In this document: in pieces, positions 29,008-49,248 of the stretch
Numbering within the stretch: position 1 is the stretch's first letter
Layout: every line of letters begins with the position of its first letter
The notes under the pieces: generated by a model
Databases searched by the model: none
Told to the model about the DNA's origin: nothing
What the model saw: the letters and a program-made list of their open reading frames with translations, nothing else
Position numbers and translations under genes: made by a program
Virus record (IMG/VR): IMGVR_UViG_3300036770_005052
Location: 1 to 64,000 of that record
DNA: 64,000 bases
Strand: one strand, 5' to 3'
DNA from: a virus

Positions 29008-30300
29008 ATGACTGCTACTATTGCTACACGCCGTTCTGGCGAAAACCTCTGGGAACAATTTTGCCAGTGGGTTACTTCAACGAACAACCGTCTTTATGTC
29101 GGTTGGTTCGGAACTCTGATGATTCCTACATTGCTTGCTGCTACTGTATGTTTCATCGTCGCCTTCATTGCAGCCCCACCAGTGGACATTGATGGCATTC
29201 GTGAACCTGTTGCTGGTTCACTCATGTACGGAAACAACATCATCTCTGGTGCCGTTGTTCCAAGTTCTAATGCGATTGGATTGCATTTTTACGCAATCTG
29301 GGAAGCAACAAGTCTTGATGAATGGCTTTATAATGGCGGACCTTTCCAACTGATTGTGTTCCACTTCCTCATTGGCATCTATTGCTATATGGGTCGTGAA
29401 TGGGAACTCTCATATCGTTTGGGTATGCGTCCTTGGATTATGGTTGCTTACAGTGCTCCTGTTGCTGCTGCATCTGCTGTATTCCTAGTATATCCTTTTG
29501 GACAAGGTTCATTCTCTGATGCGATGCCTCTTGGTATCTCTGGTACTTTCAACTATATGTTTGTGTTCCAGGCAGAGCACAATATCCTGATGCACCCATT
29601 CCATATGCTTGGAGTTGCTGGTGTCTTCGGTGGTTCTCTGTTCAGTGCTATGCACGGTTCTCTTGTTACTTCTTCACTGGTTCGTGAAACCACTGAAACT
29701 GAATCGCAGAACTACGGTTACAAGTTCGGTCAAGAAGAAGAGACTTATAACATCGTTGCTGCTCACGGTTATTTTGGTCGTCTAATCTTCCAATATGCAT
29801 CGTTCAACAACTCTCGTAGTCTTCACTTCTTCCTTGCTGCCTGGCCCGTTGTAGGCATCTGGTTTGCTGCTCTTGGTGTGAGCACCATGGCATTCAACCT
29901 GAATGGTTTCAACTTCAATCAGTCAATTCAAGATAGTCAAGGTCATGTTATTAACACTTGGGCGGACATCTTGAATCGTGCTGGACTCGGAATGGAAGTT
30001 ATGCATGAGCGTAGATTTGGGTATTGCGCTCTTTAAATCGGATGAATTGCTGGAAACCCCAAGTGGGCAATCAGCAGCCAAGTCTTAGATACATCTAAGA
30101 AAGGTTCAGAGACTACCTGAGGAATAAAGTTTCCTTAATAACAGGGTTAGCGTCCGACACCAGAAATGGTGATGATATAGTCCAATCCTGGTAGTAATAC
30201 CAGATTTCAAGAGGTTTATAAGAATGCCCACAATTTCCCTCTTGACCTTGCATCAGTTGAAGCAACTCCTGTTGCCTTGACTGCTCCAACCATCGGTTGA
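29008..30300 (+). CDS. psbA: Photosystem II D1 protein, join(29008..30012,30223..30300)
   Basis: Typical D1 sequence; ...VMHER continues as [11 protein letters not shown]...APTIG* after intron removal. Confidence 0.97.
30013..30222 (+). mobile_element. Group I self-splicing intron (210 nt, no internal ORF)
   Basis: 5' exon ends in U and the intron ends in G; IGS GCGCUC pairs GAGCGU and GGGUAUU pairs AAUGCCC (P10); core AAUCAGCAG, GUUCAGAGACUA, GAUAUAGUCC. Confidence 0.93.
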
Positions 30301-35900: not shown

Positions 35901-38900
35901 TCTTCAAGGTGATCGGGGAGTTCAGGGAACTCAAGGATTGCAAGGTCTTCAAGGTACTCAAGGACTTCAAGGTGATCAAGGTACTCAAGGTACTCAAGGT
36001 ACTCAAGGTATTGGATCCCAGGGTACTCAAGGGCTACAAGGTAATCAGGGAACTCAAGGTTTACAAGGTGATCAGGGTACTCAAGGATTACAGGGTACAC
36101 AAGGTTTACAAGGTGATCAGGGTACTCAAGGATTACAGGGTACACAAGGTTTACAAGGTGATCAGGGTACTCAAGGACTTCAGGGTACTCAAGGTGTAGG
36201 TACTCAAGGTACTCAAGGTACTCAAGGATTACAAGGTCTTCAGGGAACACAAGGTACTCAAGGACTGCAGGGTGATCAAGGTACTCAAGGATTACAGGGA
36301 ATTCAAGGTACTCAAGGTCATCAAGGAACCCAAGGATTCCAAGGTACTCAAGGATTACAAGGTCTTCAAGGTCTTCAAGGTCTTCAAGGTCTTCAAGGTC
36401 TTCAAGGTAATCAAGGAATTCAAGGATTACAAGGTACTCAAGGTGTTGGAGCGCAGGGTAATCAAGGTTTACAAGGATTGCAGGGTACTCAAGGATTGCA
36501 GGGTAATCAAGGTACTCAAGGACTACAAGGTAATCAGGGCACTCAAGGATTGCAAGGATTGCAAGGTAATCAGGGTACTCAAGGATTACAAGGCACTCAA
36601 GGTTTACAGGGTGTTCAAGGATTAAGTAATCAAGGTGTTCAAGGTTCTCAGGGATTACAAGGTACTCAAGGTCTTCAAGGTACTCAAGGTGTTGGATCGC
36701 AAGGTACTCAAGGATTGCAAGGTGATCAAGGTACTCAAGGTTTACAGGGATTTGAAGGTTCTCAAGGAACTCAAGGACTGCAAGGTAATCAGGGTACTCA
36801 AGGAGTTCAAGGACTCCAAGGTACTCAGGGTGTTGGATCACAGGGTTCTCAAGGACTTCAAGGACTTCAAGGTGATCAGGGTACTCAAGGCACTCAAGGT
36901 ACTCAAGGAGTTCAAGGTGATCAGGGTATTCAAGGATTAAGTAATCAAGGTGTTCAAGGTTCTCAAGGATTACAAGGTACTCAAGGATTGCAAGGTGACC
37001 AGGGAACTCAAGGTAATCAAGGTGTAGCTGGTCCAGTAGTAGGTTCTGCAAATCAGATTGTTTATAAGGATGCTTCTAATAATCCTACTGGTTCAAATAA
37101 TCTAACTTTTGATGGGAATAATCTCTTTGTTAATGGAAACATTACTATTGGTGGAACCACGGCATTTCTTGCAGTAAATGAACTTAAAGTAAAAGATAAA
37201 GATATTATAATTGGTATTACTACAGATGCTTTTGGAAATGATGTTTCAACTGATACGTCAGCAAATCATGGTGGTATCGCAATTGCTTCTACTGAAGGTT
37301 CTCCATTAGTTAATTTTCCAATATCCGGAATTAATAGTTTACCTACCACATATAAACAAATTATGTGGGTTAAAGGGGGAACTTATGGTGCTGAAACAGC
37401 AGATGCTTGGCTATTTAATTATGGTGTTGGTATTGGTTCTACTCAAGTTCCTAGTGGAGTTGTATTGTCTGTTGGAGGACCAATTAAATTTGATAGTACT
37501 ATTCGTGATATTTACAATAATGTTGGTATTGCAGGATCTATACTTATTTCAACAGGAATTGGAGTAAGTTGGGCAACTCCTTATGATGCTGGATTGCAAG
37601 GGTCACAAGGAACCCAAGGTCTTCAGGGATCACAAGGATCGCAAGGTAACCAAGGTACTCAAGGTGTTGGATCACAAGGTACTCAAGGTACTCAAGGTCT
37701 TCAAGGTGATCAAGGAATACAAGGTCTTCAAGGTTCTCAAGGACTTCAGGGAGATCAAGGTACTCAAGGTGCTCAAGGTTCAATTGGTTCTCAAGGAACT
37801 CAAGGATTCCAGGGAATACAAGGAAATCAAGGTCTCCAAGGTAATTTTGGTAATCAAGGAGTACAAGGAGCACAAGGATCTCAAGGAGTTCAAGGACTTC
37901 AGGGAGATCAAGGTACTCAAGGTGCTCAAGGTATTCAAGGTGGAATCGGTATAGGAACTACATCTTTATGGAAAGGTGTTAGACAAAGTTTTACCGCTGC
38001 TAATTTAACTGCGACTAGTTCTTGGACCAAATTTGTAGGCTATGCTTCCACAGACATAGATACGGATTCTTTTGCAAATGGAAATTATGGATATACTATA
38101 CCTGCTAATGTATCAAAAATAAAATTTACAGTAAGTGTCAGACCATCTTCTTCGGTAAGTAATCAATGGGCATTATATAAGGATGGTAATGTAGTTAGTC
38201 CTAGTGCATTTTTTATTGAAGCAGAATCTGGAGCTGGATATAGTAATGGTAGTGCGACAGGAGTTAGTGCAACATTAGATGTTTCTGAAGGTGAAATATT
38301 TGATCTTAGATATTTTGTATCATCAACTACTCCAACATGGACTGGATTTTTTGAAATGCAAGTTCTTGAAGGAAAACTTCTGGGAACATATTATGGTGGA
38401 ATAGGTCCACAAGGTACTCAAGGTCTCCAAGGTCTTCAAGGTGTTGGATCCCAGGGTACTCAAGGACTCCAAGGTGATCAAGGAATTCAAGGAGTTCAAG
38501 GATTCTTAAGTAACTTCCAAGGAACGCAAGGTATTCAAGGTTCTCAAGGTACTCAAGGACTTCAAGGTGATCAAGGTACTCAAGGAATGCAGGGTACTCA
38601 AGGAATGCAGGGTACTCAAGGAACCTTTATTCAAGGACTTCAAGGACTTCAAGGTGCTTCTATTCAAGGTGCTGCAGGATCTGGTGGTGGGGGTGGAGGA
38701 TCAATTGCTATTCTTGACGACACCTCTACAAATGATACATTTTATGTTGGTATTGCATCAACCACGACTGGAAATCTTGCGACTTTAAATGTATCCTCAT
38801 CTAAACTTACATTTAATCCATCAACAGGAAATCTTGTTGCGGGTGGTACAGTTACTGCAAACTCTGATGAAAGACTCAAGACAAATGTTAAGACGATTTC

Positions 38901-39132
38901 AAATGCTCTTGAAAAAGTATTATCATTACGTGGAGTAGAATATGATCGTATAGATAATGGAGATCATCAGATTGGTGTGATTGCTCAAGAAGTCGAACAG
39001 ATTATTCCCGAAGTTGTATATCCAAAATCACCAAGTCCAGATTATGAAACAAAATCTGTTGCTTATGCAAACTTAGTTGGTCTTTTGATTGAAGCAGTCA
39101 AAGAATTGAATGAAAAGATAGAGAGGAAATAA
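32908..39132 (+). CDS. Collagen-like (Gly-X-Gln) tail fibre with C-terminal intramolecular chaperone (peptidase S74)
   Basis: Five GXQ tracts, VGIGT beta repeats, SDERLKTNV...IGVIAQEVE...LIEAVKEL. Confidence 0.88.
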   Translation: MPDIRVNVNPSNVTNVRVGPENAIKVVSSATGPSGAQGIQGTQGFTGSGDQGVQGTPGGFAGKGDQGAQGLQGYQGIQGLGAQGLRGDQGTQGLQGTQGLQGTQGSQGTQGVGSQGTQGLQGTQGSQGTQGVGSQGTQGLQGYQGTQGLQGTQGSQGTQGLQGYQGLQGLQGSQGSQGTQGLQGDQGIQGTQGLQGYQGLQGLQSSQGLQGLQGSQGLQGSQGLQGTQGLQGDQGIQGIQGSQGIKGDPGIAGETYWEKNSTGINTSSNVGIGTTNAQYTLSVTNNTSSTQDLSNVLADFSGNVNSFTQVNIRNAFSGSNSSSDLVFTADNGNNELNFLNLGINNTGFGTDTWTINGPTDGYLYASDGNLSLGVGKTTSYLSLFSGGTLAENEKVRFTNNGVGIGTTLTPAFLNVSGDVIFEGVTTTELLRVTQLGTGPAFLVEHGSRNDTNAFTILNSGQVGIGVLTPAEQYVLEVDGGDIRFVKGGEGDVVITHENLVSNVRAEGTVQLGLGANGQNDAIRIDLNQNVGIGSTLPKSKLDVTGNARISGILTVGSSSITLDGNTNIMNVGAGVTLYGNTGIVSATSFYGDGSKLTGVGSSLTVSTRTGYAGINSTDAITNVSAIRFDKNTGFAVTDLGNGEVFVEFGSTFKTWTVDGQTSLEAVGEDTVEFVAGPGIAITTRASDPKKITFSTTSGIGSTGSQGTQGLQGSIGSQGFQGLQGSIGSQGFQGLQGDQGIQGIQGLQGSQGLQGDQGSQGLQGTQGLQGIQGIQGLQGLQGDQGIQGTQGLHGDQGTQGLQGSQGSQGSQGTQGLQGIQGLQGLQGLQGTQGLQGSQGFQGLQGLQGTGSQGNQGLQGVGSQGNQGLQGLQGSIGSQGFQGLQGDQGIQGSQGTQGLQGSIGSQGFQGLQGPIGPKGTDGTSVTIKGSLALTPGNEQTQLNDSGNSWYPPQSGDGVIDSNTGNLWVYNGSTWNNVGSVRGPQGTQGTQGSQGSQGNQGLQGDRGVQGTQGLQGLQGTQGLQGDQGTQGTQGTQGIGSQGTQGLQGNQGTQGLQGDQGTQGLQGTQGLQGDQGTQGLQGTQGLQGDQGTQGLQGTQGVGTQGTQGTQGLQGLQGTQGTQGLQGDQGTQGLQGIQGTQGHQGTQGFQGTQGLQGLQGLQGLQGLQGLQGNQGIQGLQGTQGVGAQGNQGLQGLQGTQGLQGNQGTQGLQGNQGTQGLQGLQGNQGTQGLQGTQGLQGVQGLSNQGVQGSQGLQGTQGLQGTQGVGSQGTQGLQGDQGTQGLQGFEGSQGTQGLQGNQGTQGVQGLQGTQGVGSQGSQGLQGLQGDQGTQGTQGTQGVQGDQGIQGLSNQGVQGSQGLQGTQGLQGDQGTQGNQGVAGPVVGSANQIVYKDASNNPTGSNNLTFDGNNLFVNGNITIGGTTAFLAVNELKVKDKDIIIGITTDAFGNDVSTDTSANHGGIAIASTEGSPLVNFPISGINSLPTTYKQIMWVKGGTYGAETADAWLFNYGVGIGSTQVPSGVVLSVGGPIKFDSTIRDIYNNVGIAGSILISTGIGVSWATPYDAGLQGSQGTQGLQGSQGSQGNQGTQGVGSQGTQGTQGLQGDQGIQGLQGSQGLQGDQGTQGAQGSIGSQGTQGFQGIQGNQGLQGNFGNQGVQGAQGSQGVQGLQGDQGTQGAQGIQGGIGIGTTSLWKGVRQSFTAANLTATSSWTKFVGYASTDIDTDSFANGNYGYTIPANVSKIKFTVSVRPSSSVSNQWALYKDGNVVSPSAFFIEAESGAGYSNGSATGVSATLDVSEGEIFDLRYFVSSTTPTWTGFFEMQVLEGKLLGTYYGGIGPQGTQGLQGLQGVGSQGTQGLQGDQGIQGVQGFLSNFQGTQGIQGSQGTQGLQGDQGTQGMQGTQGMQGTQGTFIQGLQGLQGASIQGAAGSGGGGGGSIAILDDTSTNDTFYVGIASTTTGNLATLNVSSSKLTFNPSTGNLVAGGTVTANSDERLKTNVKTISNALEKVLSLRGVEYDRIDNGDHQIGVIAQEVEQIIPEVVYPKSPSPDYETKSVAYANLVGLLIEAVKELNEKIERK

Positions 39133-39133
39133 T

Positions 39134-41917
39134 ATGCCAGTAGGAATTGGATCTACTCAGATTACTGGAATCAGCGTAGTTGCTAATCCAGCAGACGCTG
39201 CAAATAAACAATATGTGGATTCTTCTTCCGGTGGATTGCCATCTATTGATGGTAATGAAAATGAGTTTTTATTCACTGATGGTTCTACTGTATCGTGGCA
39301 ACCAATACAAGGTTATCAAGAATATACGACTGCGGGAAATTATGTATTTGATATCCCAACACAAGCAAAAGAACTGTTCATAGAAGCAACAGGTGCCGGA
39401 GGTGGTGGAGCACCAGGTTCGGCAACTACATCAACAACTTATACAAGTCGTGGAGAATTTTGGTTTTTAAGAACTTCTGGAACAACAAGCAATTTTACTG
39501 GAAATGGTAATGTTGGAAATCCACTCGGATCCTATGGACTTGGTTTTTATGTAATGGGAACTGGTAGTGGGACAATATTTGCATCTACAGACTCAATTAC
39601 TTGGGTTGCAAGAACTTCTGGGTTTGGAACTTCCGTAATTTGGACTGTAAATTATGGATCAAATATTTTTATAAGTACGTGTGCCATTACTGGTACTGGT
39701 CCATTAAGAACTTCAACGGATACGATTCACTGGATTTTGAGAACAAGTGGTTCTGTTTCACAAATAATAACGACAATATCAACTGATAATAATTTTCATC
39801 TGTATGCTGATCAAAATGGGCAGATTAGATCTTCCACAGATGGAATAACCTGGAATATCAGAACAACACCAACTAGGGCTACATTTTCTTTGTACGCTCG
39901 TGCATACTCTGCTTCTCCGAGTACTAATTATGTATTTGCGGGGAGTACGGGAATTGTTGCATCAACAGATGGAATAGTATGGCAATTAAGAACTTCTGGA
40001 CTAGGTTCTGTTACATTTTATCGTGGAACATATGGAAATGGCATATATCTTTTTGGAACTAGTGGTGGAACTTTAATTGCTTCTACCGATACAATTGTTT
40101 GGACTTCTAGAAATTATCCTAGTGGATCTTCTAATCAAATATCTGATGTAATTTTTGGAAATAATACTTATATTGTTAATCAGTATAACAATAGGTATTT
40201 AATTACCTCAACAGATTCTATAGTATGGATTGTAAGAACTTCTCCTGCAGTATCAGTTCACTACTGTGCAGGTATTTTTGGAAATTCAATATTTGTTTAT
40301 GGTTCTGAAACTGGTCGTATAATAGCATCTGATATACCATCAGGTAATGCTGGATCTGGGGGTGGTGGAGGGGCATCTATAGGATCTATAATCTCAAGAT
40401 CAAATATTTCAGGATCAACTCTTAATGTAAATGTTGGATCTGGTGGAACTTCAGGAACTGCTGGCGCAGCATCAACAGTATCTTGGACAAGTCCTGGAGG
40501 AAATTTTTCAATTACTGCAAACGGTGGATCTGCAGGAGTGAATACATTCTTAAGTACAAGTAATATTGTTCCTGGTGGTGCTGGCGGAACGGTAACAGTT
40601 TCAAATAATTATGTTTATTCTTCTGCAGGAACTGCTGGTGGTAATGGAGGATATTTTGAATCATCAACGAATAATATGCAAGGTTTAGCAGGATCGGATG
40701 CGACTTCAACAACTCTTGTATATCAAACTACTGGTGGTGGAGGTGGAGCATCTTCTTTATTTGATGGACAATTTGGAACTTTTGGTGGAACAATAAACTA
40801 TTATGGAAATACATATCAAAACTCAAAAACTATATCTGCTTTAATGAATGGTACAAGTTCATTACCAATAAGTGGTCTTTCTTATGGAAATGGTGGAAAT
40901 GGTGGTGGAGCACAACATGGTGCAGTTGCTTGGGTTTTAAGAACTTCTGGATTTGGAGCGACTGCTTATGAAATTGGTTATGGAAATGGAATTTATATAC
41001 TTTGTGGAAATGGAGGAAGATTATCTACTTCTACTGATACCATAACCTGGATCGCAAGAACATCTGGATTTGGAACATCTAATATAAATGCAACACTGTA
41101 TGCCAACAATAATTATCTTATATTTGGAAGTGGTGGAGCAATAAGTATTTCCACAGATTCTATTGGATGGACAGCAAGAACAACTGCCGGTGCTGCCACT
41201 GGTATTCTTGGAAATCCTAATAATGGTGGACCATCGGCAATTTATGCAAATGATTTATATTTTATTTGCGGTTCTTCTATGATATTATTAATATCTACTG
41301 ATTCAATTGTATGGACACAAAGAACAACAAATATGTCAACTTTAGATGTAAGATCTATTGCATATGGAAGTGATAAAACGGAAAAATATGTTATATCTGG
41401 TTCTAGTAGTAACATACGTAGTTCTACGGATACTATTGTTTGGACTTTAAGAACACTTGGTCAATCTGCAACAACTGTAGGATCTCTACAATATTTTAAT
41501 CAAAATTATTATGCATTTACCCAGGGAGGTTTATTTGTTACCTCAACTGATGCAATAGTTTGGACTTTACTTAGAAATAGTGGCGTTCAATATACTTCTG
41601 CAATTTCATCTAATTCATTAATAGTTGGTGGATCTTTAGGGTGGATTACAACATCTACAAATGGCATTTCGTGGGTATTGAGAACGTCTGGAGTTTCTAC
41701 AAATGCTTTTTCTTGTGCTTATGGTAATGGATTATTTTTAGCAACTTATGGTGCAGGTGCTCAAGTAATTGTTGCTGACTCAAATATAAATGGTGGAAAT
41801 GGTGGTGCTGGAACTAAAGGTGGTGGTGGAGGTGGTGGAGGTTATAATTTAGCAACAAATACTGTTGGAACTGGTGGAACTGGTGGTGATGGATATGTTC
41901 GTATTAGTTGGCAATAA
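39134..41917 (+). CDS. Glycine-rich virion protein with two 7-repeat beta-propeller modules
   Basis: DAANKQYVD; Gly-rich scaffold ending GGDGYVRISW; STDxIxWxLRT repeats. Confidence 0.75.
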   Translation: MPVGIGSTQITGISVVANPADAANKQYVDSSSGGLPSIDGNENEFLFTDGSTVSWQPIQGYQEYTTAGNYVFDIPTQAKELFIEATGAGGGGAPGSATTSTTYTSRGEFWFLRTSGTTSNFTGNGNVGNPLGSYGLGFYVMGTGSGTIFASTDSITWVARTSGFGTSVIWTVNYGSNIFISTCAITGTGPLRTSTDTIHWILRTSGSVSQIITTISTDNNFHLYADQNGQIRSSTDGITWNIRTTPTRATFSLYARAYSASPSTNYVFAGSTGIVASTDGIVWQLRTSGLGSVTFYRGTYGNGIYLFGTSGGTLIASTDTIVWTSRNYPSGSSNQISDVIFGNNTYIVNQYNNRYLITSTDSIVWIVRTSPAVSVHYCAGIFGNSIFVYGSETGRIIASDIPSGNAGSGGGGGASIGSIISRSNISGSTLNVNVGSGGTSGTAGAASTVSWTSPGGNFSITANGGSAGVNTFLSTSNIVPGGAGGTVTVSNNYVYSSAGTAGGNGGYFESSTNNMQGLAGSDATSTTLVYQTTGGGGGASSLFDGQFGTFGGTINYYGNTYQNSKTISALMNGTSSLPISGLSYGNGGNGGGAQHGAVAWVLRTSGFGATAYEIGYGNGIYILCGNGGRLSTSTDTITWIARTSGFGTSNINATLYANNNYLIFGSGGAISISTDSIGWTARTTAGAATGILGNPNNGGPSAIYANDLYFICGSSMILLISTDSIVWTQRTTNMSTLDVRSIAYGSDKTEKYVISGSSSNIRSSTDTIVWTLRTLGQSATTVGSLQYFNQNYYAFTQGGLFVTSTDAIVWTLLRNSGVQYTSAISSNSLIVGGSLGWITTSTNGISWVLRTSGVSTNAFSCAYGNGLFLATYGAGAQVIVADSNINGGNGGAGTKGGGGGGGGYNLATNTVGTGGTGGDGYVRISWQ

Positions 41918-41930
41918 GGAGGAACTATAA

Positions 41931-44639
41931 ATGACAACTGCAGGACCTAATTATATTTCTGGTATTACCACATCAACATTTGAGAATACTGACGTAGTGA
42001 ATAAATCTTATGTTGATAATCTTTCTAGTAGTTCTTTGCCATCACAGACAGGAAATAATGGAAAGTTTTTCACTACAACTGATGGTACTAATGTTTCTTG
42101 GGATTATGTTTCTAATTATCAAGAATTTACAACTTCAGGATCACAAACATTTACAGTTCCGTCTCAAGCAAATCTTTTATATATTGAGGCAGTTGGTGGT
42201 GGGGGTGGAGGGAGTACTGGAACGACAGGATTTACATATGCAAAGAATGGACTTACTTGGTCATTAAGAACTTCTGGATTTGGTTCATCTTCAATTACAA
42301 ATGTTTTATTTGGTGGGTCAACTTATGTTGCGAGTGGTGCTTCATATCTTGCAACATCTACAGATAATATTACTTGGATCTCAAGAACTTCTGGATTTGG
42401 AACTTCAAATATTAATGGATTGACTTATTCTAATAATGAATATTTGATTGGTAGTGTTGGTGGTAGTGGACAAATTTGGACTCAAAGAACAGTTGTTGGA
42501 ACTTCAACGGGTCTTGGTGCTCTTGCATATGGTAATGGATTTTACCTTGCTGGAGGTTATGGGACAAATGCTCATGTTCAGGTTTCTACAGATACTATTC
42601 GGTGGGTTTTAAGGACCTCTGCAAACAGGGCTACAGCATCAGTTATGCAAACGATGGTCTTTGGTGGAGGTATCTATGTTGTTGGAGACTCTTGGCCACA
42701 GATAAGAACTTCGACAAATACTATTCAATGGTCTTTAAGAACTGGTGGATTTCTTGGTTCTGGAGTAATTAATAGATTTGCTTACAGTGAAACGCCAACA
42801 GAAAAATATGTTGGGGGCAAAAGTGGAGGAGGAGTAATATCTTCTACAAATGCTATTCAGTGGACTTTAAGAACATCTGGATTTGGTACTTCTCCTATTA
42901 GTAGTCTTATTTACGGAACTGATAGTTATATTGCTGGTGGAGTCGGTGGAATAATAAGAATTTCAACTGATGCAATTTCTTGGACTTTAAGAACATCGGG
43001 ATTTGGAACTTCTACAATTAGTGCTCTTGTTTATGGGAGTGTTTATGTTGTTGCTGGAGTTTCTGGAACTTTATTATCTTCAACAGATACGATTGTTTGG
43101 TCTTTAAGAACATCGGGATTTGGAACTTCTACAATTAATTTCCTTACATATGGCAATAACTTTTATGTTGCTGGTGGTGCATCAGGAACTAATACATTTT
43201 CTACTGATGCGATTGTGTGGACTTTAAGAACTTCAGGATTTGGAACCACCTCCATTAACTCATTATTGTTTGATGGTGCTAGTACTTTTGTTCAGTCATC
43301 TATTGCTTCAAATACTCTTTCAACATTTTCAACTACTACTACTACTAGTGCTACATTAAGTTCATCTACTGATGCAGTATCGTGGTCTTTGAGAACTTTT
43401 AATACAGGTTCTCAAACAATCACATTATTGAATTCATTTGGTTCTTATTCCCTTGCTCATGGAACAGATTATTTTGCTGAATATAATTTATTGAGTGTAT
43501 CTACAGATAATATAAATTGGGAATTAAGAACATCTGGATTTGGAAGCAATCAAATTACTTCATTTGGATATGATGGTACTTCTTATCTTGCTGTAGGACA
43601 ATCTGGAGCATTAACTGTTTCGACTGATACGATTACTTGGATCTTAAGAACTTCTGGATTCGGAACAACTTTAATTGATGCATTAACTTATGGAAATGGA
43701 GTATATGTTGCTGGAGGTTTATCTGGCACTTTGACATCTTCTACAGATACAATAGTTTGGACTTTAAGAACTACTGGTAATGGAACATATACTATAAACT
43801 CTTTATCATATTCAAATACTGCAAGCAACTTTATTTTTGCTGGAGATTTTGGGGATATATTTACTTCTACTGATGCAATTGTATGGAGAATGAATACTTC
43901 TCTTACGACTGCAAATCTTTTAACTTCAGTTCATACAAATAATACTTATTTGGTTGCTGGAGCATCTGGAACTTTATCGCAAGCAGTTACTCAACTCTCT
44001 GGAATTGGCGGTTCTGGTGGATCTTATACTTCTTGGTATATTCCAAAACCTATTGTGACTTCTGATATAACTGTGAATATTGGCGTTGGTGGAACTGGGG
44101 CAACAACTGAAAGTACTTCCGGATCTGCTGGCGCGGGAACAACAATATCATGGACTGGACCTGGAGGAACTTATACACTAGTTGCAAATGGTGGTGGTGC
44201 TGCCGGAGTTGCTGGAATTGCTCAAACTAATATTACGAGTTATTTTTATACAACTGCTGGTGGATCTGGTGGTATTGCAACTAGTGGAATTGGAGTTACT
44301 GCAACTGCACAAATAAATCAATATCAATCAACAGGTGGTGGTAGTGGAGCAGGAACACCATCTTCCGCAGGGGGTTCTGGTGGTTCAATCACTTTTTATG
44401 GAAATACTATTTTCTCTGCTGGCGGTGATAATACGGGAACAAATGGTGCAACTGGTATTGCCATCACTTCATTACCTTATGGTTTTGGTGGAGGAGGTGG
44501 TGGTGCTGGAGCATCAACTGCAGGATCTGGCGGTAATGGAATTCGTGGAGGAGGTGGAGGTGGTGGTGCTGCCATTGGTTCTACCTTTGGAAATGGTGGT
44601 GATGGTGGTGATGGATTCGTGAGAATCACATGGTGGTAA
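41931..44639 (+). CDS. Glycine-rich virion protein with 14 propeller repeats
   Basis: Paralogue of 39134; ends GGDGFVRITWW. Confidence 0.75.
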   Translation: MTTAGPNYISGITTSTFENTDVVNKSYVDNLSSSSLPSQTGNNGKFFTTTDGTNVSWDYVSNYQEFTTSGSQTFTVPSQANLLYIEAVGGGGGGSTGTTGFTYAKNGLTWSLRTSGFGSSSITNVLFGGSTYVASGASYLATSTDNITWISRTSGFGTSNINGLTYSNNEYLIGSVGGSGQIWTQRTVVGTSTGLGALAYGNGFYLAGGYGTNAHVQVSTDTIRWVLRTSANRATASVMQTMVFGGGIYVVGDSWPQIRTSTNTIQWSLRTGGFLGSGVINRFAYSETPTEKYVGGKSGGGVISSTNAIQWTLRTSGFGTSPISSLIYGTDSYIAGGVGGIIRISTDAISWTLRTSGFGTSTISALVYGSVYVVAGVSGTLLSSTDTIVWSLRTSGFGTSTINFLTYGNNFYVAGGASGTNTFSTDAIVWTLRTSGFGTTSINSLLFDGASTFVQSSIASNTLSTFSTTTTTSATLSSSTDAVSWSLRTFNTGSQTITLLNSFGSYSLAHGTDYFAEYNLLSVSTDNINWELRTSGFGSNQITSFGYDGTSYLAVGQSGALTVSTDTITWILRTSGFGTTLIDALTYGNGVYVAGGLSGTLTSSTDTIVWTLRTTGNGTYTINSLSYSNTASNFIFAGDFGDIFTSTDAIVWRMNTSLTTANLLTSVHTNNTYLVAGASGTLSQAVTQLSGIGGSGGSYTSWYIPKPIVTSDITVNIGVGGTGATTESTSGSAGAGTTISWTGPGGTYTLVANGGGAAGVAGIAQTNITSYFYTTAGGSGGIATSGIGVTATAQINQYQSTGGGSGAGTPSSAGGSGGSITFYGNTIFSAGGDNTGTNGATGIAITSLPYGFGGGGGGAGASTAGSGGNGIRGGGGGGGAAIGSTFGNGGDGGDGFVRITWW

Positions 44640-44667
44640 TAAATACTCTTATATAAAAGTCGAATAA

Positions 44668-47600
44668 ATGGCAATATTAGACAGCAATCGAGTTACTGGT
44701 GTTAGTACTGTAGTAAATGCGACTGATGCTGCAAATAAGTCGTATGCCGATTATGTGTTGAGTGGTGGTGGAGGATCCGCATATCCAAGTACAACAGGTA
44801 ATGATGGTAAATTTTTGAGTGTTAGATCTGGATTGCCTTCTTACACTCAATGGACATCAATAAATTCAACTTCTTCATCTAACACTGAACCAACATATAA
44901 AGGTTATCAAGAATTTACAACTTCTGGAGCACAAACATTTTATATTCCACCAACTGCAACACAGTTTTATATTGAAGCAATTGGTGGAGGTGGTGGAGGA
45001 GCATCTGGAAGAACAACTGGAACTGTTGGATCTGGAGGTGGTGGAGGATCTGGTGCTTATAACTCGTGGTTAATTCGTCGTTCAGAACTTGGAAATGCTT
45101 CATCTATTACCGTAACTCCAGGTGCTGGTGGTGCAGTTGCATCTAGTGGAGGAAATACAACAGTAACTTGGACTGGAAATAGTCCAATAGGAACCGCAAC
45201 TTATACACTCACATCTTCTGGTGGAACTGGAGCATCCCCATCTGCTGTAACTGCAGGTAGTGCGGGTGCGGCGGCTGATGCGACTTTAAATCCACTTTAT
45301 ACAACTGCTGGTCTTGCTGGTGGTACTGGATTGACATCATGGTCAAGTGTAAATAATGTAACGCAAGTAAATCCATTTCAAGTTACTGGTGGTGGTGGGG
45401 GTGCATATAATACAAGAGAAGGTGGAAACTCTCTCACATATTATTATGGAAATGCTTATAATACTGCAGGAAGTGCTTCTGGTGGTGCAGGTTCAGATGG
45501 TATTCCAGGATCTTATACTGGATCTTATGGATCTGGTGGAGGTGGAGGTGGAGCACTTTCGACTGGAATTAATAGTTGGTATTTAAGAACTTCTGGATTT
45601 GGTTCAACCGCGATTGATTCTCTTGCATATGGTAATGGGAATTACGTTGCTGGTGGATTTTCACCAACGATTTCTTGGATTTTGAGAACTGTAGGATTTG
45701 GTAGTTCCTCAATACAAGGATTAATTTATGGAAATGGTCTTTATGTTGCTTCCGTAATCTCTAGTGGTTTCTTAAGAGCATCAACTGATGGTGTGACTTG
45801 GGTCGCAAGAACATCTCCTGCTATAGCACCTTTTAGTGATACTATGGGTGGAATTTATGATGGGTCTAATTACTTTATCTCTGGTGGTGCTGTAACACCT
45901 GGAGGTCTTCTTACTTCAACAGATACAATCTCTTGGACCTTAAGAACTTCTGGGTTTTTTACTTTATGGATGGGATCTATTTCTTATGGATCTGGTGAAA
46001 CGGAAAAATATATTATTGGTGGTCAAAGTGGTCGATTAAGTTCTTCTACTGATTCTATTTCTTGGGTTTCGAGAACTTCTGGATTTGGAACATCTGGTAT
46101 CATGTCCAGTGTGTATGATGGTTCTAATTATTATATTGGAGGTGCTGGACCACTTTTAAGAGTATCCACAAACGGAATTGCTTGGGTGACAAGAACAGCA
46201 CCTATGAGTGGATATTATGTAAATATGATTTATGGTTTAAACACTTATGTTGCTTCTGGTTCTAGTGGTTCGGTAATTTCTTCAACAAATGGTATTGAAT
46301 GGACTTTAAGAACTTCATCTCTGGGAGTTGCTGGAAGTGCAGTATATGCTTTATTATATAATAATAATCTTTATTATGCGGGAGACGGAACAGGTAGGAT
46401 CGTAACTTCTACAGATACGATTACTTGGATTACCAGAACTTCTGGAAAAAGTGTTGTTATACATGAAATAGCATCTGATGGAATTAACTATGTTGTTGTA
46501 GGTAATAGTGGAGTATCTCTTACATCAACGCAAAGCACTTTAAGTAATCTTGGAAATGGTGGATTACTAACTGCTTCAACTGACGGAATAACTTGGACTT
46601 TAAGAACAAACTTTAATATTCAGACAATTCAATTATTATCTGCAAGTAATAGTTATTATGTTGCGGCTGGATCAAACTATATTTCAGAACCAGCACTGAT
46701 TTCTTCTACTGATAATATCAATTGGTTTTCAAGAACTACTGGATTTGGTACTACTAGTATTTCTGCAGTTGGATATGGAAACAATGAGTTTCTGATTGGA
46801 GGATCTGCAAATAATGTCACTTGGACTTTAAGAACTTCTGGATTTGGTACTAGTCAAATTTCCAGCGTGATATATGGTGGAGATTCTTTTTTGATTGGTA
46901 CTCCTTTTGTAACTGGATTCATAAGAGCATCCACAGATGGTGTATCATGGGTAACTAGAACTTCTGGATTTGGATCTACTGGAATCAATTTTTATTCTTA
47001 TTTTAATGGCGAATATTTGATTGGAGGTAACTCAGCATTTATAACCTGGACTTTAAGAACTTCAGGATTTGGAACAACTAATATTTTTAGTGTAAATTTT
47101 GGCGGATCTCATTTTATTGCTCATGGAGTATCTGGAACTCTAACTGCATCAACAGATGGAGTTTCTTGGTCTTTAAGAACATCAGGATTTGGTACATCGC
47201 AAATTATTAATGCTACTTATTTTAATGGTGAACATTTAATTGGTGGTGCTGGAGCACTTATAAGAGCATCAACAGATACAATAGCATGGATATCAAGAAC
47301 TGCTCCTCTCAATACACTTTCTTTTTACAATTTTAATGGTATTAAGACTTTAAATTCTTCTGGATCTTATGTGTTTGGAATGACTCAAGATTCTTTAAAT
47401 AATTATGGAATGATAGCATCTACCGATAATATTAACTGGGAATTTAGAACTTCTGGAAGAGGAAATGTTATACACTATACAACTGCTTTTGGTGTAAGCA
47501 CATATGCTCTGGGTGTTAATGGTGGTGTTTCTACATCAACTGATAGTATTTCTTGGACAATAAGGACTGCCACTGCGTCACCACAGTATATGGTTTATGG

Positions 47601-49248
47601 TGATCAGTTTGTTACAACTACTGGCACATCTTTACTGGCATCAACAAATGGAATAGTATGGAGAATAAGAACTGTTCCAGGAAACTTGATGCAAAAAATA
47701 TCTTATAATAATAACTTATATGTAGTTTCTGTTGATGCTAATGATGCAAACACTGCAATATCCACTGATACAATTGTTTGGCAAATAAGAACTTCGGGAT
47801 TTGGAACTAGTCAAATTGGTGGAGTAACAAATAATGGAACAGTTTGGGTTATTGCTGGTAGAACAGGAACTTTAGCAACTTCTACACAAGATACATTTAG
47901 TTCTACTGGTAGCGGAGCATTCTTAAGAGCATCAACTGATAGTATATCTTGGATCACCAGAACTACACCACAAGGAACTTTAAATATTGGTTCAAATGGA
48001 GGATTTTCTTCTGCTGGTTCTTATACATTGGCATGGGGAACTAACTCAATATTTAATTATTTCTTAATAGCATCTACTGATAATATTGTTTGGCAAATGA
48101 GGACTGCAATATTCCCTACTAATATTTACAGTTTTACTTATGGAAATGGTATTTACTTATATACAACTCAAGGATCTGGTGGTGTTGCAACTTCTACTGA
48201 TACAATTGTTTGGAATTTAAGAACCTCTGGATCAACATCAGCATTATTTTCTTCTGTATATGGATCATTACCAACAGATACATTTATAGTTGCTGGTTCT
48301 TTAGGTTATCTTGCAACTTCTACTGATTCTATTAACTGGAGATTAAGAACAACGGGATTTGGAACAACAAATATTAATTCATTTGGATTAACTTATAATG
48401 ATGGTCTTTATACTGCAACGATACCTCAACAACAAAGAACATCGACTAATGGTATTACTTGGGTCTTAAGAACCTCTGGATTTGGATCTACATCAATTAA
48501 TGCTATTGCTTATGGTAATAATAATTATGTAATTGTTGGTCCTGTTGGTACTTTAGCAACCTCTACTCAAACTCTTTTGAGTTCTTATGGTACTGGTGCA
48601 TTATTACAAGCATCCACAGATACAATAATATGGACAACTAGAACAGTTGCAAATAATACTATATCAATCACTGCTTTAGCCGGTGAAAGTTCTTATTCGT
48701 TGGCATCGGTAACAAATATTATAAATGACAGTAGTGTTATGGTTTCTACGGATAACATTAACTGGGTTTTAAGAACTTCTGGATTTGGTACGACTGCGAT
48801 TAATGCCTTTACTTATGGCAATTTTTATGTTGCTGGCGGTAACAGTGGAACCATCTCTACTTCTACAGATACGATTGTTTGGTCATTAAGAACATCAGGA
48901 TTCGGTACATCTGCGATTAATGCTCTTGCTTTCAATAATAACATTTATGTCGCCGCTGGTGTAAGTGGATCAATCAGAACATCAACTGATGGAATTTTTT
49001 GGATTGTAAGATCTTCTGGATTTGGAACAACTAATATTAATTCATTAATTTATGGAACCGATTTTGTTGCTGGTGGTCTTGCAGGAACTCTTACTTCTGC
49101 ATCATCCACAACACAATCTGTGGCAGGAAATGGTGGCGCTGGAATTCGTGGGGGTGGTGGAGGTGGTGGAGGATACTCTCAGGAAACAAATCTTGCAGGA
49201 ACAGGTGGAACAGGTGGAACTGGATATGTTAAAATTTCATGGTGGTAA
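44668..49248 (+). CDS. Glycine-rich virion protein with 28 propeller repeats
   Basis: Paralogue; WTLRTSGFGT repeats; ends GGTGYVKISWW. Confidence 0.75.
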   Translation: MAILDSNRVTGVSTVVNATDAANKSYADYVLSGGGGSAYPSTTGNDGKFLSVRSGLPSYTQWTSINSTSSSNTEPTYKGYQEFTTSGAQTFYIPPTATQFYIEAIGGGGGGASGRTTGTVGSGGGGGSGAYNSWLIRRSELGNASSITVTPGAGGAVASSGGNTTVTWTGNSPIGTATYTLTSSGGTGASPSAVTAGSAGAAADATLNPLYTTAGLAGGTGLTSWSSVNNVTQVNPFQVTGGGGGAYNTREGGNSLTYYYGNAYNTAGSASGGAGSDGIPGSYTGSYGSGGGGGGALSTGINSWYLRTSGFGSTAIDSLAYGNGNYVAGGFSPTISWILRTVGFGSSSIQGLIYGNGLYVASVISSGFLRASTDGVTWVARTSPAIAPFSDTMGGIYDGSNYFISGGAVTPGGLLTSTDTISWTLRTSGFFTLWMGSISYGSGETEKYIIGGQSGRLSSSTDSISWVSRTSGFGTSGIMSSVYDGSNYYIGGAGPLLRVSTNGIAWVTRTAPMSGYYVNMIYGLNTYVASGSSGSVISSTNGIEWTLRTSSLGVAGSAVYALLYNNNLYYAGDGTGRIVTSTDTITWITRTSGKSVVIHEIASDGINYVVVGNSGVSLTSTQSTLSNLGNGGLLTASTDGITWTLRTNFNIQTIQLLSASNSYYVAAGSNYISEPALISSTDNINWFSRTTGFGTTSISAVGYGNNEFLIGGSANNVTWTLRTSGFGTSQISSVIYGGDSFLIGTPFVTGFIRASTDGVSWVTRTSGFGSTGINFYSYFNGEYLIGGNSAFITWTLRTSGFGTTNIFSVNFGGSHFIAHGVSGTLTASTDGVSWSLRTSGFGTSQIINATYFNGEHLIGGAGALIRASTDTIAWISRTAPLNTLSFYNFNGIKTLNSSGSYVFGMTQDSLNNYGMIASTDNINWEFRTSGRGNVIHYTTAFGVSTYALGVNGGVSTSTDSISWTIRTATASPQYMVYGDQFVTTTGTSLLASTNGIVWRIRTVPGNLMQKISYNNNLYVVSVDANDANTAISTDTIVWQIRTSGFGTSQIGGVTNNGTVWVIAGRTGTLATSTQDTFSSTGSGAFLRASTDSISWITRTTPQGTLNIGSNGGFSSAGSYTLAWGTNSIFNYFLIASTDNIVWQMRTAIFPTNIYSFTYGNGIYLYTTQGSGGVATSTDTIVWNLRTSGSTSALFSSVYGSLPTDTFIVAGSLGYLATSTDSINWRLRTTGFGTTNINSFGLTYNDGLYTATIPQQQRTSTNGITWVLRTSGFGSTSINAIAYGNNNYVIVGPVGTLATSTQTLLSSYGTGALLQASTDTIIWTTRTVANNTISITALAGESSYSLASVTNIINDSSVMVSTDNINWVLRTSGFGTTAINAFTYGNFYVAGGNSGTISTSTDTIVWSLRTSGFGTSAINALAFNNNIYVAAGVSGSIRTSTDGIFWIVRSSGFGTTNINSLIYGTDFVAGGLAGTLTSASSTTQSVAGNGGAGIRGGGGGGGGYSQETNLAGTGGTGGTGYVKISWW

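What the first reader, a model, noticed from the sequence alone, without database searches (positions are those of the whole stretch)
39134..49248. Recursively nested 7-repeat beta-propeller cassettes in three paralogous virion proteins
Counting WxxRT repeats gives exact sets of seven. ORF 39134 has two sets at two different sites in the Gly-rich scaffold. ORF 41931 has set B (about 42463-43335) inserted after repeat 2 of set A (2+7+5). ORF 44668 has 28 repeats that parse as A1[B1-7]A2-3[C1-2[D1-7]C3-7]A4-7 (B about 45667-46533, C 46807-48570, D 47032-47889). Every nested insertion starts at the same loop (after YVAGG/YLIGG) and returns through a Ser/Thr linker. Inference: a whole-propeller module inserts into itself to build branched multivalent receptor-binding heads. 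The conserved DNA repeat tggactttaagaacttctggatttgg could drive the shuffling.
Basis: partly seen in the sequence, partly recalled or inferred. Interest (0 to 1): 0.72.

Follow-up and report, generated by a model that had tools for sequence, protein, structure and literature searches.

The report
Propellers nested inside propellers, recursively
Three neighbouring genes of a marine cyanophage encode fibre-tip-like proteins in which complete seven-bladed beta-propeller rings are spliced into a loop of other propeller rings, up to three rings deep here and deeper in relatives. I found no published description of this self-nesting for propellers, and related phages appear to swap the rings as cassettes.

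Summary
The three ORFs carry 14, 14 and 28 blade units.

Unit spacing has three modes:
- about 40 aa: normal.
- 33 aa ("open"): strand 3 and the Asp-box are missing.
- 56-57 aa ("return"): an S/T-rich linker plus an extra strand 3.

Counting seven blades from each open site predicts the return sites. This worked at 52 of 53 predicted sites in about 190 non-redundant arrays, against 18 of 1250 other positions.

For the 902-aa protein, AlphaFold2 (mean pLDDT 75) and structure search place a closed seven-bladed ring at residues 178-471, the predicted inner ring B. An independent ESM Atlas model also aligns a single propeller to 281 residues spread over 32-670, which fits the split outer ring A (67 + 214 residues).

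For the 1526-aa protein, the parse A1[B]A2-3[C1-2[D]C3-7]A4-7 rests on the grammar (chance about 8e-5), a whole-propeller HMM and homology. It has no structure model.

Relatives reach 63 blades and five rings in depth. Close orthologues differ by clean gain or loss of whole rings, and the same ring type sits at different nodes in different phages.

Virion location, receptor binding and the proposed DNA-repeat mechanism remain untested. I rate it a new variant of known kinds, of high interest.

The parts
39134..41917 (+). ORF1 (927 aa). A conserved N-terminal segment and a Gly-rich scaffold carry two separate, un-nested seven-bladed rings.
   Evidence: Searches give the architecture [1234567]-235-[1234567]. 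Gly_rich_2 is below threshold (16.6 bits) and phrog_754 'minor tail protein' scores E 6e-5.
39443..40348 (+). ORF1 ring X (residues 104-405), at the N-terminal site of the scaffold.
   Evidence: Seven anchors at 110-365. The whole-propeller HMM matches it full length, 107-399.
40913..41794 (+). ORF1 ring Y (residues 594-887), at the C-terminal site of the scaffold.
   Evidence: Seven anchors at 600-847.
41931..44639 (+). ORF2 (902 aa): N-terminal segment, a split Gly_rich_2 domain, and the nested pair A(2+5) containing B.
   Evidence: PF21722, 35.7 bits against a cut-off of 24.3. AF2 models.
42234..42461 (+). ORF2 outer ring A, first piece (residues 102-177). It holds the closing ('velcro') W-strand, blade 1, and strands 1-2 of blade 2.
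   Evidence: Anchors at 110 and 149. AF2 strands E109-112, 124-143, 161-167 and 170-176, with 10-residue block-mean pLDDT 72-90 over residues 111-170.
42462..43343 (+). ORF2 inner ring B (residues 178-471), a complete closed seven-bladed propeller.
   Evidence: VIA-align: 2z2n Z 32.0, rmsd 2.3 A, 280 residues aligned, model range 180-469. The other single-propeller rows (Z 27.5-30) begin at 135-189 and end at 466-479; four two-propeller chains extend to 687-690 at rmsd 8-19 A. HMM full length 180-470. The 56 foreign rings align to 177/182-466/471.
43344..44000 (+). ORF2 return linker, host strand 3 (475-479) and outer-ring blades A3-A7 (residues 472-690).
   Evidence: The 55-aa spacing at anchor 485. 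AF2 strand E475-479, 10-residue block-mean pLDDT 70-90 over residues 481-690. HMM positions 73-283 match 471-687. An ESM Atlas row aligns 281 residues over 32-670 at TM 0.83.
44668..49248 (+). ORF3 (1526 aa): N-terminal segment, Gly_rich_2 domain (residues 84-301), then a tree of four rings inserted before the last strand of that domain.
   Evidence: (PF21722, 32 bits, profile positions 1-208 of 226).
45553..45657 (+). ORF3 ring A, piece 1 (A1, residues 296-330).
   Evidence: Anchor at 304. The next anchor follows after only 33 aa and has no Asp-box.
45658..46545 (+). ORF3 ring B (residues 331-626), a complete ring.
   Evidence: Seven anchors at 337-587. HMM full length 333-625, score 270. It is 86% identical to the same ring in L002 and 70% to ring E of L003.
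46546..46803 (+). ORF3 return linker and ring A blades A2-A3 (residues 627-712).
   Evidence: The 56-aa spacing at anchor 643. These blades are 80-83% identical to A2-A3 of L005.
46804..47028 (+). ORF3 ring C, piece 1 (C1-C2, residues 713-787).
   Evidence: A 33-aa spacing at anchor 719. 75-88% identical to C1-C2 of L005.
47029..47901 (+). ORF3 ring D (residues 788-1078), a complete ring and the innermost level.
   Evidence: A 33-aa spacing at 794 and seven anchors at 794-1038. HMM full length 790-1076, score 202.
47902..48582 (+). ORF3 return linker and ring C blades C3-C7 (residues 1079-1305).
   Evidence: A 57-aa spacing at anchor 1095. 66-91% identical to C3-C7 of L005. C1-2[D]C3-7 aligns colinearly with ORF2 residues 106-686 at 38% identity.
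48583..49119 (+). ORF3 return linker and ring A blades A4-A7 (residues 1306-1484).
   Evidence: A 57-aa spacing at anchor 1322. HMM positions 113-286 match 1308-1483, ending at the end of the profile.

Best explanation
The three genes are paralogues encoding phage fibre-tip-type proteins.

Each has a conserved N-terminal segment of about 50 aa and a glycine-rich tip domain (Pfam Gly_rich_2). Loops of that domain carry seven-bladed beta-propellers with an Asp-box-like motif, of the DUF6242 / Ycf48-like kind.

In sequence, each ring starts with its outermost W-strand and ends with strands 1-3 of its last blade. Closing the ring brings its two ends together. A complete ring can therefore be spliced into the hairpin between strands 2 and 3 of a blade of another ring without breaking the host.

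The same rule applies at every level and gives trees of rings:
- ORF2 is A1-2[B1-7]A3-7.
- ORF3 is A1[B]A2-3[C1-2[D]C3-7]A4-7.
- In both, the tree itself sits in a loop of the Gly-rich domain.

Related phages gain, lose and exchange whole rings at these nodes.

Shown here: the repeat grammar, the borders and closure of ring B, the existence of a second, discontinuous ring in an independent model, and cassette-type differences between relatives.

Inferred: the closure of rings A and C in ORF3. Also inferred: the inserts leave from the face opposite the Asp-boxes, the proteins sit at the tip of a virion fibre, and the rings bind host surface glycans, so that ring exchange changes host range.
For: Context:
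- The window is a T4-like cyanophage fragment. It has psbA, a 2074-aa collagen-like tail-fibre gene directly upstream and glycosyltransferases downstream.
- The record is 119.6 kb and about 52% complete.

Grammar:
- Unit spacing has three modes, 33, 40 and 56-57 aa.
- Return sites predicted only from open sites plus counting to seven have a long spacing in 52 of 53 cases, against 18 of 1250 elsewhere (Fisher p 3e-76). At least 10 different architectures are covered.
- The ORF3 parse arises by chance at about 8e-5.

Units:
- A 287-position whole-ring HMM, built from 49 rings of other loci, matches full length only at ORF2 180-470 and at ORF3 333-625 and 790-1076. The remaining stretches match only parts of the profile.
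- MAFFT, unguided, placed 56 foreign rings on ORF2 177/182-466/471.

Structure:
- The AF2 model has mean pLDDT 75; 10-residue block means over B (residues 181-470) run 66-95, mostly 85-95.
- Solved seven-bladed propellers align to model 178-471 with Z 28-32, rmsd 2.2-2.8 A and 270-287 residues.
- Tandem 14-blade chains align in sequence order but mostly at rmsd above 20 A (one at 9.7 A) and TM 0.15-0.45.
- The ESM Atlas's own model of this exact protein aligns a 307-aa single propeller at TM 0.83 over 281 residues spread across 32-670. Ring A is 67 + 214 = 281 residues. A second row covers 174-551, which is B.
- Predicted strands at 109-112 and 475-479 are the closing strand and the host strand 3 that nesting requires.

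Scaffold: the Gly-rich domain is predicted as one domain from pieces on either side of the propellers. This kind of domain is the receptor-binding tip in Pam3 gp24 and S16 gp38 (PMC9608196).

Cassettes.
Against: - There is no structure model for ORF3. The Atlas has none and both AF2 jobs went to ORF2.
- I could not read coordinates, contacts or PAE. Closure of ring A in the AF2 model is therefore inferred from strand assignments and pLDDT. All 50 rows of each VIA list fall on ring B.
- The second AF2 alignment is much deeper over B (90 rows) than over A (34 rows), which may favour B folding as a unit. The first run, with 18 rows, did not fold the propellers at all.
- The Atlas ranges give only the first and last aligned residue.
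- Function: Pfam and PHROG give only a Gly-rich domain and one weak 'minor tail protein' hit. The N-termini match no family. There are no proteomic or binding data.
- Counts in the grammar test are not phylogenetically independent.
Confidence: 0.75

Rival explanations
1. Consecutive propellers. The blades fold in sequence order into tandem seven-bladed rings (2 in ORF2, 4 in ORF3). The short and long spacings would then be only irregular loops or inter-ring linkers.
For: Blade totals are multiples of seven, which tandem rings also give. Foldseek finds tandem 14-blade proteins as the best sequence-order matches, E about 1e-16. Many relatives do have plain tandem or separate rings.
Against: The long linkers lie after units 9 (ORF2) and 8, 19 and 24 (ORF3), not at multiples of seven. 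The AF2 ring is units 3-9 (178-471), not 1-7. The whole-ring HMM and 56 foreign rings pick the same borders. Tandem chains superpose mostly at rmsd above 20 A, one at 9.7 A. The 52 of 53 concordance has no explanation under this model.
Confidence: 0.06
2. Partly open assembly. Inner rings such as B and D are closed propellers, but the interrupted host blades do not close into rings. They would form open arcs or pair between subunits of an oligomer (domain swapping).
For: I could not inspect the contacts of ring A in the AF2 model. Fibre tip domains of this kind are trimeric in Pam3 gp24 (PMC9608196), so exchange between chains is conceivable.
Against: Host pieces always sum to exactly seven blades: 2+5, 1+6, 3+4, 4+3, 1+2+4 and 2+2+3. 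The A pieces have 10-residue block-mean pLDDT 70-90 and a paired first W-strand. The Atlas model aligns a whole single propeller at TM 0.83 to 281 residues spread over 32-670.
Confidence: 0.1
3. The architecture is the same but the role differs. The proteins would be capsid or whisker decorations, or glycan-degrading enzymes of the sialidase superfamily, rather than receptor-binding fibre tips.
For: Asp-box propellers include sialidases and other glycosidases. Nothing here shows virion location.
Against: The scaffold is the Gly-rich tip domain known from fibre adhesins (PMC9608196). A relative carries the Mtd_N fibre N-terminal domain. The gene directly upstream is a tail fibre. No sialidase or glycosidase family matched. 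The ring-by-ring replacement between phages is the pattern expected of host-recognition parts.
Confidence: 0.2

Closest known systems
Ferlin DysF domains (inner DysF inserted into a loop of an outer DysF)
   Same: [quoted passage not shown]
   Different: It is a different fold with one fixed level of nesting in a eukaryotic protein. Here the fold is a seven-bladed propeller. The rule is applied again and again: three rings deep in the window, up to five by sequence grammar in relatives, and several inserts per host ring. The inserts vary between close relatives.
Integrin alpha-subunit propeller with the inserted I domain (from my own knowledge, not tested here)
   Same: A seven-bladed propeller is interrupted after blade 2 by a whole domain and resumes with blades 3-7. 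This is the same 2 + insert + 5 topology as ORF2.
   Different: The integrin insert is a Rossmann-like vWA domain, not another propeller. It is not recursive and not phage-borne.
Tandem double propellers (beta'-COP 2ynp, Aip1 1nr0, GH74 xyloglucanase 5jwz, BT4663 sensor 4a2m)
   Same: They have fourteen blades in one chain forming two seven-bladed rings. They are the best sequence-order structural matches.
   Different: Their rings are consecutive in sequence. The ORF2 model superposes on them mostly at rmsd above 20 A (one at 9.7 A) with TM 0.15-0.45, and its closed ring is units 3-9.
Glycine-rich fibre tip adhesins: Pam3 gp24, Salmonella phage S16 gp38 (PMC9608196)
   Same: The Gly-rich domain has GGGGxGG-type runs, and its distal loops are the variable, receptor-binding part. 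The three ORFs carry Pfam Gly_rich_2 and a fibre-gene neighbourhood.
   Different: In the known adhesins the variable loops are a few residues long. Here the loops carry whole propellers or trees of propellers of 290 to about 1200 aa. PDB sequence searches with ORF2, its alignment profile and the ORF3 Gly-rich domain returned no fibre protein, and structural similarity of the Gly-rich part was not tested.
DUF6242 / Ycf48 (PSII_BNR) / BNR Asp-box seven-bladed propellers
   Same: The fold and a repeat motif in the turn before the outer strand are shared. Relatives pass the Pfam DUF6242 threshold. The Atlas's structural neighbours are DUF6242_C and PSII_BNR clusters at TM 0.73-0.83. BFVD DUF6242 models match at TM 0.80-0.84.
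   Different: The motif here is S-T-D-x-I-x-W, one residue shorter than the canonical S-x-D-x-G-x-T-W. The window's own proteins are below the Pfam thresholds. Known members are single or tandem rings.

Membership tests
Asp-box (BNR) / DUF6242 / Ycf48-like seven-bladed propellers | A closed seven-bladed beta-propeller fold | tested here: met
   ORF2 model residues 178-471 align to solved seven-bladed propellers with Z 28-32, rmsd 2.2-2.8 A and 270-287 residues. This was not tested for ORF1 or ORF3.
Asp-box (BNR) / DUF6242 / Ycf48-like seven-bladed propellers | A score above the curated Pfam cut-off (BNR PF02012, BNR_2 PF13088, DUF6242 PF19755) | tested here: not met
   ORF1 scores 21.9 bits for DUF6242 against a cut-off of 29. 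ORF2 and ORF3 have no hit at E up to 1. Relatives found by sequence do pass: P0017 40.6, P0116 55.6 and P0005 36.6 bits. Membership therefore holds only by transitive homology.
Asp-box (BNR) / DUF6242 / Ycf48-like seven-bladed propellers | The Asp-box S-x-D-x-G-x-T-W in the turn between strands 3 and 4 of each blade | tested here: inconclusive
   Every continuing blade has S-T-D/N-x-I-x-W directly before the outer strand. The S, D and W are kept, but the motif is one residue shorter and has I where G is expected.
Asp-box (BNR) / DUF6242 / Ycf48-like seven-bladed propellers | Nearest structural neighbours belong to the family | tested here: met
   ESM Atlas rows: DUF6242_C cluster TM 0.83, Ycf48/Hcf136-like 0.73, DUF6242 0.64. 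BFVD DUF6242 proteins score TMt 0.80-0.84.
Pfam Gly_rich_2 (PF21722) glycine-rich domain | A score above the gathering cut-off of 24.3 bits | tested here: met
   ORF2 35.7 bits (residues 669-901, profile 15-225). ORF3 32.0 bits (residues 84-301, profile 1-208). ORF1 scores only 16.6 bits.
Phage fibre-tip adhesins with a polyglycine domain (Pam3 gp24, S16 gp38) | Structural similarity of the Gly-rich part to the solved tips | not tested
   The structure-search lists were filled by the propeller. Sequence searches of the PDB with ORF2, its alignment profile and the ORF3 Gly-rich domain gave only weak matches (best E 0.017) to unrelated proteins, none to a fibre protein.
Phage fibre-tip adhesins with a polyglycine domain (Pam3 gp24, S16 gp38) | Presence in the virion at the distal end of a fibre, and receptor binding | not testable with these tools
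   Only context is available: a tail-fibre gene upstream, a weak 'minor tail protein' PHROG match for ORF1, and Mtd_N in relative P0021.
Tandem double propellers | Two rings made of consecutive sets of seven blades | tested here: not met
   The closed ring in ORF2 is units 3-9. Linker positions are not at multiples of seven. Superposition on tandem chains is mostly at rmsd above 20 A, one at 9.7 A.
Self-nested domains (ferlin DysF type) | A contiguous inner copy of a fold lies inside a discontinuous outer copy of the same fold | tested here: met
   For ORF2, inner ring B is 178-471 and the outer ring is supported by an Atlas row aligning 281 residues over 32-670 at TM 0.83. For ORF3 this rests on grammar and the HMM only.

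The most novel reading that the evidence does not exclude
The propeller here may be a self-insertable cassette governed by a true recursive rule: any blade's strand 2-3 hairpin can host a whole ring, which can itself host rings. Marine cyanophages would then use exchange of rings at any node of the tree as their way of re-targeting fibre tips. This gives single chains with up to nine rings (63 blades), nested up to five deep. If so, it would be the first natural recursive domain architecture. It would also be a ready-made scaffold for displaying many binding faces from one polypeptide.
Probability: 0.45. Interest if true: 0.85.

Novelty: new variant of a known kind. Interest (0 to 1): 0.74.

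Why it matters
Domain insertion and beta-propellers are both textbook subjects. A propeller spliced into a propeller, repeatedly and to several levels, is something I could not find described. The nearest precedent I found is the two-level DysF nesting of ferlins.

It raises a folding question: how does a chain of 1500-3000 aa close an outer ring whose pieces lie up to 1000 residues apart?

It offers an evolutionary model. Ring closure by the first strand makes the fold self-insertable, and all observed architectures keep exactly seven blades per level.

It may explain part of host-range evolution in abundant ocean cyanophages. Host frames stay 66-91% identical while inner rings are replaced or moved. 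The wider repeat family is large, with 12,231 cluster representatives at E up to 1e-3.

It also warns annotators that counting repeats in order gives the wrong domain borders here.

Tried and rejected
- AF2 on ORF2 with 18 orthologues failed on the propellers: mean pLDDT 34, and only the split Gly-rich domain folded.
- Adding the 600-aa single-ring relatives, or proteins of 1500-3400 aa, made MAFFT scatter the blades. I left them out.
- A scan of viral contigs with the full-length alignment picked generic Gly-rich patterns and gave one locus. Scans with P0126 and P0046 gave 3 and 0 loci.
- Blade-by-blade similarity did not resolve which blades are orthologous. Consensus-like blades dominate, and register signals between rings are weak.
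- A first Asp-box-based parser mis-called ORF3 residue 719, where SANNVTW mimics the motif. It was replaced by a rule based on spacing.
- PDB sequence searches found only weak matches (best E 0.017) to unrelated proteins.
- Pfam found nothing on the N-terminal 70 aa.
- The annotated phage collection gave one distant hit for ORF2 and none for ORF1.
- No source gives the relatives a name other than 'hypothetical protein'.
- In both VIA-align searches every listed row fell on ring B, so ring A could not be tested that way.
- BFVD held no whole-protein match.
- The Atlas has no model of ORF3.
- Five literature searches found no description of nested propellers or of these cyanophage proteins.
Full report
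**What is there**

The window is part of a 119.6-kb uncultured virus record, about 52% complete. It has the marks of a T4-like cyanophage:
- psbA at 29008-30036.
- A 2074-aa collagen-like tail-fibre gene at 32908-39132.
- Glycosyltransferase genes downstream.

Directly after the fibre gene lie three same-strand ORFs of 927, 902 and 1526 aa.

All three begin with a similar segment of about 50 aa and end in G(D/T)GYV(R/K)ISW(Q/W). All three contain the Pfam glycine-rich domain Gly_rich_2. ORF2 scores 35.7 bits and ORF3 32.0 bits against a cut-off of 24.3. ORF1 scores 16.6.

In ORF3 the profile matches positions 1-208 before the repeats. In ORF2 it matches positions 15-225 after them. So the repeats interrupt that domain near its C-terminal end in ORF3 and near its N-terminal end in ORF2. 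In ORF1 the repeats sit at both sites.

**The repeat and its grammar**

The unit is about 40 aa: W-x-x-R-T-S-G-F-G ... Y-G-N-x-x-Y-V-A-G-G ... G-x-L-x-x-S-T-D-x-I-x. There are 14, 14 and 28 units.

By analogy with Asp-box propellers, S-T-D-x-I-x-W is the turn before the outermost strand. This step rests on established knowledge of the fold. It means a sequence unit holds strand 4 of one blade followed by strands 1-3 of the next.

Spacing between successive W anchors in about 190 non-redundant arrays has three modes: 39-40 aa, 33-34 aa and 56-57 aa.
- At the short spacings, strand 3 and the Asp-box are missing. The next W-strand follows strand 2 (YVAGG, FLIGG, YLIGG) after 6-7 residues.
- At the long spacings, a complete blade is followed by an S/T/G-rich linker and then a second strand 3 with its Asp-box.

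Missing and extra strands balance like brackets. In ORF2 the open is at residue 183 and the return at 485. In ORF3 the opens are at 337, 719 and 794 and the returns at 643, 1095 and 1322.

Read as brackets, this gives A1-2[B1-7]A3-7 for ORF2.

**Is it chance?**

For ORF3, random placement of three opens and three returns gives a fully closing parse in 153 of 2,000,000 trials. For ORF2 it does so in 6 of 156 placements.

Across the relatives, I predicted return positions from the open sites alone by counting to seven. Of 53 predicted returns, 52 have a spacing of 53 aa or more, against 18 of 1250 other positions (Fisher p 3e-76).

The arrays are related by descent, so this p-value overstates independence. 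Even so, at least ten different architectures close correctly: 2+5, 3+4, 4+3, 1[7]2-3[7]4-7, 2[7]2[7]3, 3[1[7]6]4 and deeper ones.

**Independent definition of the units**

I built a 287-position HMM of a whole ring from 49 contiguous rings of other loci. The window and its 90% relative were left out.

Full-length matches occur only at ORF1 107-399, ORF2 180-470, and ORF3 333-625 and 790-1076. The host pieces match only part of the profile. Two of them run to its C-terminal end: ORF2 471-687 matches positions 73-283, and ORF3 1308-1483 matches positions 113-286.

MAFFT, without guidance, placed all 56 foreign single rings on ORF2 residues 177/182-466/471.

**Structure**

The first AlphaFold2 run used 18 orthologues. 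It folded only the Gly-rich domain, from pieces on both sides of the repeats (pLDDT 70-87), and left the propellers unfolded.

The second run used 91 rows: 34 colinear nested modules and the 56 single rings. It gave mean pLDDT 75. Ten-residue block means run 66-95 over ring B (mostly 85-95) and 70-90 over most of the two A pieces.

Structure search against the PDB shows that model residues 178-471 are a complete closed seven-bladed propeller. The best match is virginiamycin B lyase 2z2n, with Z 32.0, rmsd 2.3 A and 280 of 293 residues aligned. Many WD40 rings follow at Z 28-30.

Foldseek aligns tandem 14-blade proteins in sequence order. The superposition is poor: rmsd is above 20 A for nearly all chains (9.7 A for one) and TM is 0.15-0.45. 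The closed ring is therefore units 3-9, not 1-7.

The model also has strands at 109-112 and 475-479. These are the first W-strand of A, which in a closed ring pairs with the last blade, and the extra host strand 3 that follows B.

I could not read coordinates, and every row of the structure lists fell on B. Closure of A in this model is therefore inferred.

The ESM Atlas fills part of that gap. It holds this exact sequence with its own model, made without my alignment (pLDDT 0.68).
- A 307-aa single-propeller cluster aligns to it at TM 0.83 over 281 residues lying between residues 32 and 670.
- Another row aligns 307 residues within 174-551 at TM 0.73.
- The two A pieces together are 67 + 214 = 281 residues.
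- A compact single ring drawn from a span of 639 residues, alongside a ring at 174-471, is what nesting predicts.

Caveats:
- The Atlas gives only the first and last aligned residue.
- My second alignment is deeper over B than over A.
- ORF3 has no model.

ORF3's C1-2[D]C3-7 does align colinearly with ORF2 residues 106-686 at 38% identity.

**Relatives**

The repeat family is large: 12,231 cluster representatives at E up to 1e-3. Blade totals in near relatives are multiples of seven:
- 600-aa proteins have one ring at the N-terminal site.
- 900-aa proteins have two separate rings or a 2+7+5 pair.
- 1850-aa proteins carry the 2+7+5 module at the C-terminal site of the scaffold.

Deeper forms, by sequence grammar only:
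- L005 ORF (2719 aa): A1[B]A2-3[C1-2[D1-3[E]D4-7]C3-7]A4-7.
- L003 ORF (over 3014 aa, 63 blades): A1[B]A2-3[C1-2[D1[E]D2-3[F]D4-7]C3-7]A4-7, plus more rings.
- 2180-aa proteins with four opens in a row, making five rings in depth.
- P0197, with four rings inserted in successive blades of one host.

**Cassette behaviour**

The L002 orthologue of ORF3 is 71-91% identical in the shared parts. It has two extra inserts with clean borders:
- A 14-blade nested module sits after the N-terminal segment.
- A seven-bladed ring sits in the Gly-rich loop where ORF3 has only AVASSG.

Against L005, the ORF3 host frames A and C map blade for blade at 66-91% identity. The inner rings do not: B is 35-48% identical, and D is simple in the window but nested in L005.

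Ring types recur at different nodes:
- ORF2 ring B is 91% identical to its L002 orthologue. It is 73-74% identical to the innermost rings of the L003 and L005 giants.
- ORF3 ring B is 86% identical to L002's and 70% identical to ring E of L003, which sits in a different host ring.
- The background identity between ring types is 36-48%.

The ORF2 host is 2+5 where the matching L005 host is 3+4, with A1=D2 through A6=D7. The point at which the chain enters the host ring has therefore moved by one blade. That is natural for a closed ring.

Within the window, DNA identity between blades is only 60-85%, and the longest repeat is 300 nt at 70%. The 26-nt word (14 copies) is the coding of a conserved peptide. 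It could offer microhomology, but nothing here shows that it does.

**What it most likely does**

Shown:
- The architecture.
- Its variation between relatives.

Inferred:
- In the solved tips of Pam3 gp24 and S16 gp38, the glycine-rich domain ends a tail fibre, and its short distal loops bind the receptor (PMC9608196). Here the loops of a domain of that Pfam family carry whole rings.
- With the fibre gene next door, and a relative bearing the Mtd_N fibre N-terminal domain, the most likely role is a fibre-tip adhesin whose binding surfaces are the rings.
- By the usual propeller geometry, the strand 2-3 loop lies on the face opposite the Asp-box turns. Each child ring would then stand on the top face of its parent and be tied to it through its own bottom face.

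Propeller proteins annotated TolB have been found in virion proteomes of T4-like cyanophages (PMC12801897). I did not test whether they are homologues.

An enzymatic or decorative role is not excluded.

**Comparison and novelty**

Self-insertion of a fold is known for the ferlin DysF domains, at one level (PMC10476172). Propellers interrupted by a foreign domain are known from integrins, which I cite from my own knowledge. Tandem double propellers are common.

Five full-text searches found no propeller nested in a propeller, no recursion, and no account of these cyanophage proteins. Sources name the relatives only 'hypothetical protein'.

I rate it a new variant of known kinds, with a sizeable chance that it is a genuinely recursive and exchangeable architecture.

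Noticed in passing
window 41931-42233 with 44001-44636 (ORF2 residues 46-98, 699-760, 896-902): The Gly-rich domain is itself discontinuous. AF2 folds it confidently as one domain from pieces 590 aa apart, even with the shallow alignment that failed on the propellers. The ring tree is therefore one more level of nesting inside this domain.
   Followed up: partly
L002:8420-13747 (orthologue of ORF3 in the closest related contig): It is 71-91% identical to ORF3 in the shared parts. It carries two extra inserts with clean borders: a 14-blade nested module after the N-terminal segment, and a seven-bladed ring in the loop PGAGG|AVASSG|GNTTVTW of the Gly-rich domain.
   Followed up: yes
L003:1-9042, L005:829-8985, L030:2205-11177: These are giant single ORFs of 2719 to over 3014 aa with 55-63 blades (8-9 rings). 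In L003 an inner ring repeats the 1[7]2-3[7]4-7 pattern of its outermost ring. The L003 ORF runs off the start of the locus.
   Followed up: partly
protein P0197 (3049 aa, metagenomic relative): By sequence grammar, one host ring carries four inserted rings in four successive blades: [12[7]3[7]4[7]5[7]67]. This is a flower-like rather than a chain-like tree.
   Followed up: no
proteins P0009, P0011, P0014 (orthologues of ORF2), opposite ORF2 residues 594-600: An unannotated insert of about 190 aa, not propeller-like, sits in the same kind of strand 2-3 loop (after YVAGG of blade A5). The loop can therefore host other domains too. Pfam finds nothing in it.
   Followed up: partly
window 43383-43517, 46594-46722, 47950-48090, 48631-48762: The blade that follows each return is a distinct, conserved odd type. 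It lacks SGFG, has the pattern ...SYSLA..., and three of the four end in STDNINW (the fourth, C3, ends in STDNIVW). Two of the four insert-bearing blades are an NNE(Y/F)LIG type, and a third (C2) reads FNGEYLIGG. So host blade + insert + odd blade recurs as a larger unit.
   Followed up: partly
The return linkers are S/T-rich, so linker glycosylation is conceivable.
   Followed up: no
window 42961-43260 and 48743-49042: This is the longest DNA repeat in the region: 300 nt at 70% identity, between ORF2 blades B5-B7 and ORF3 blades A5-A7. There is no sign of a recent duplication inside this genome.
   Followed up: yes
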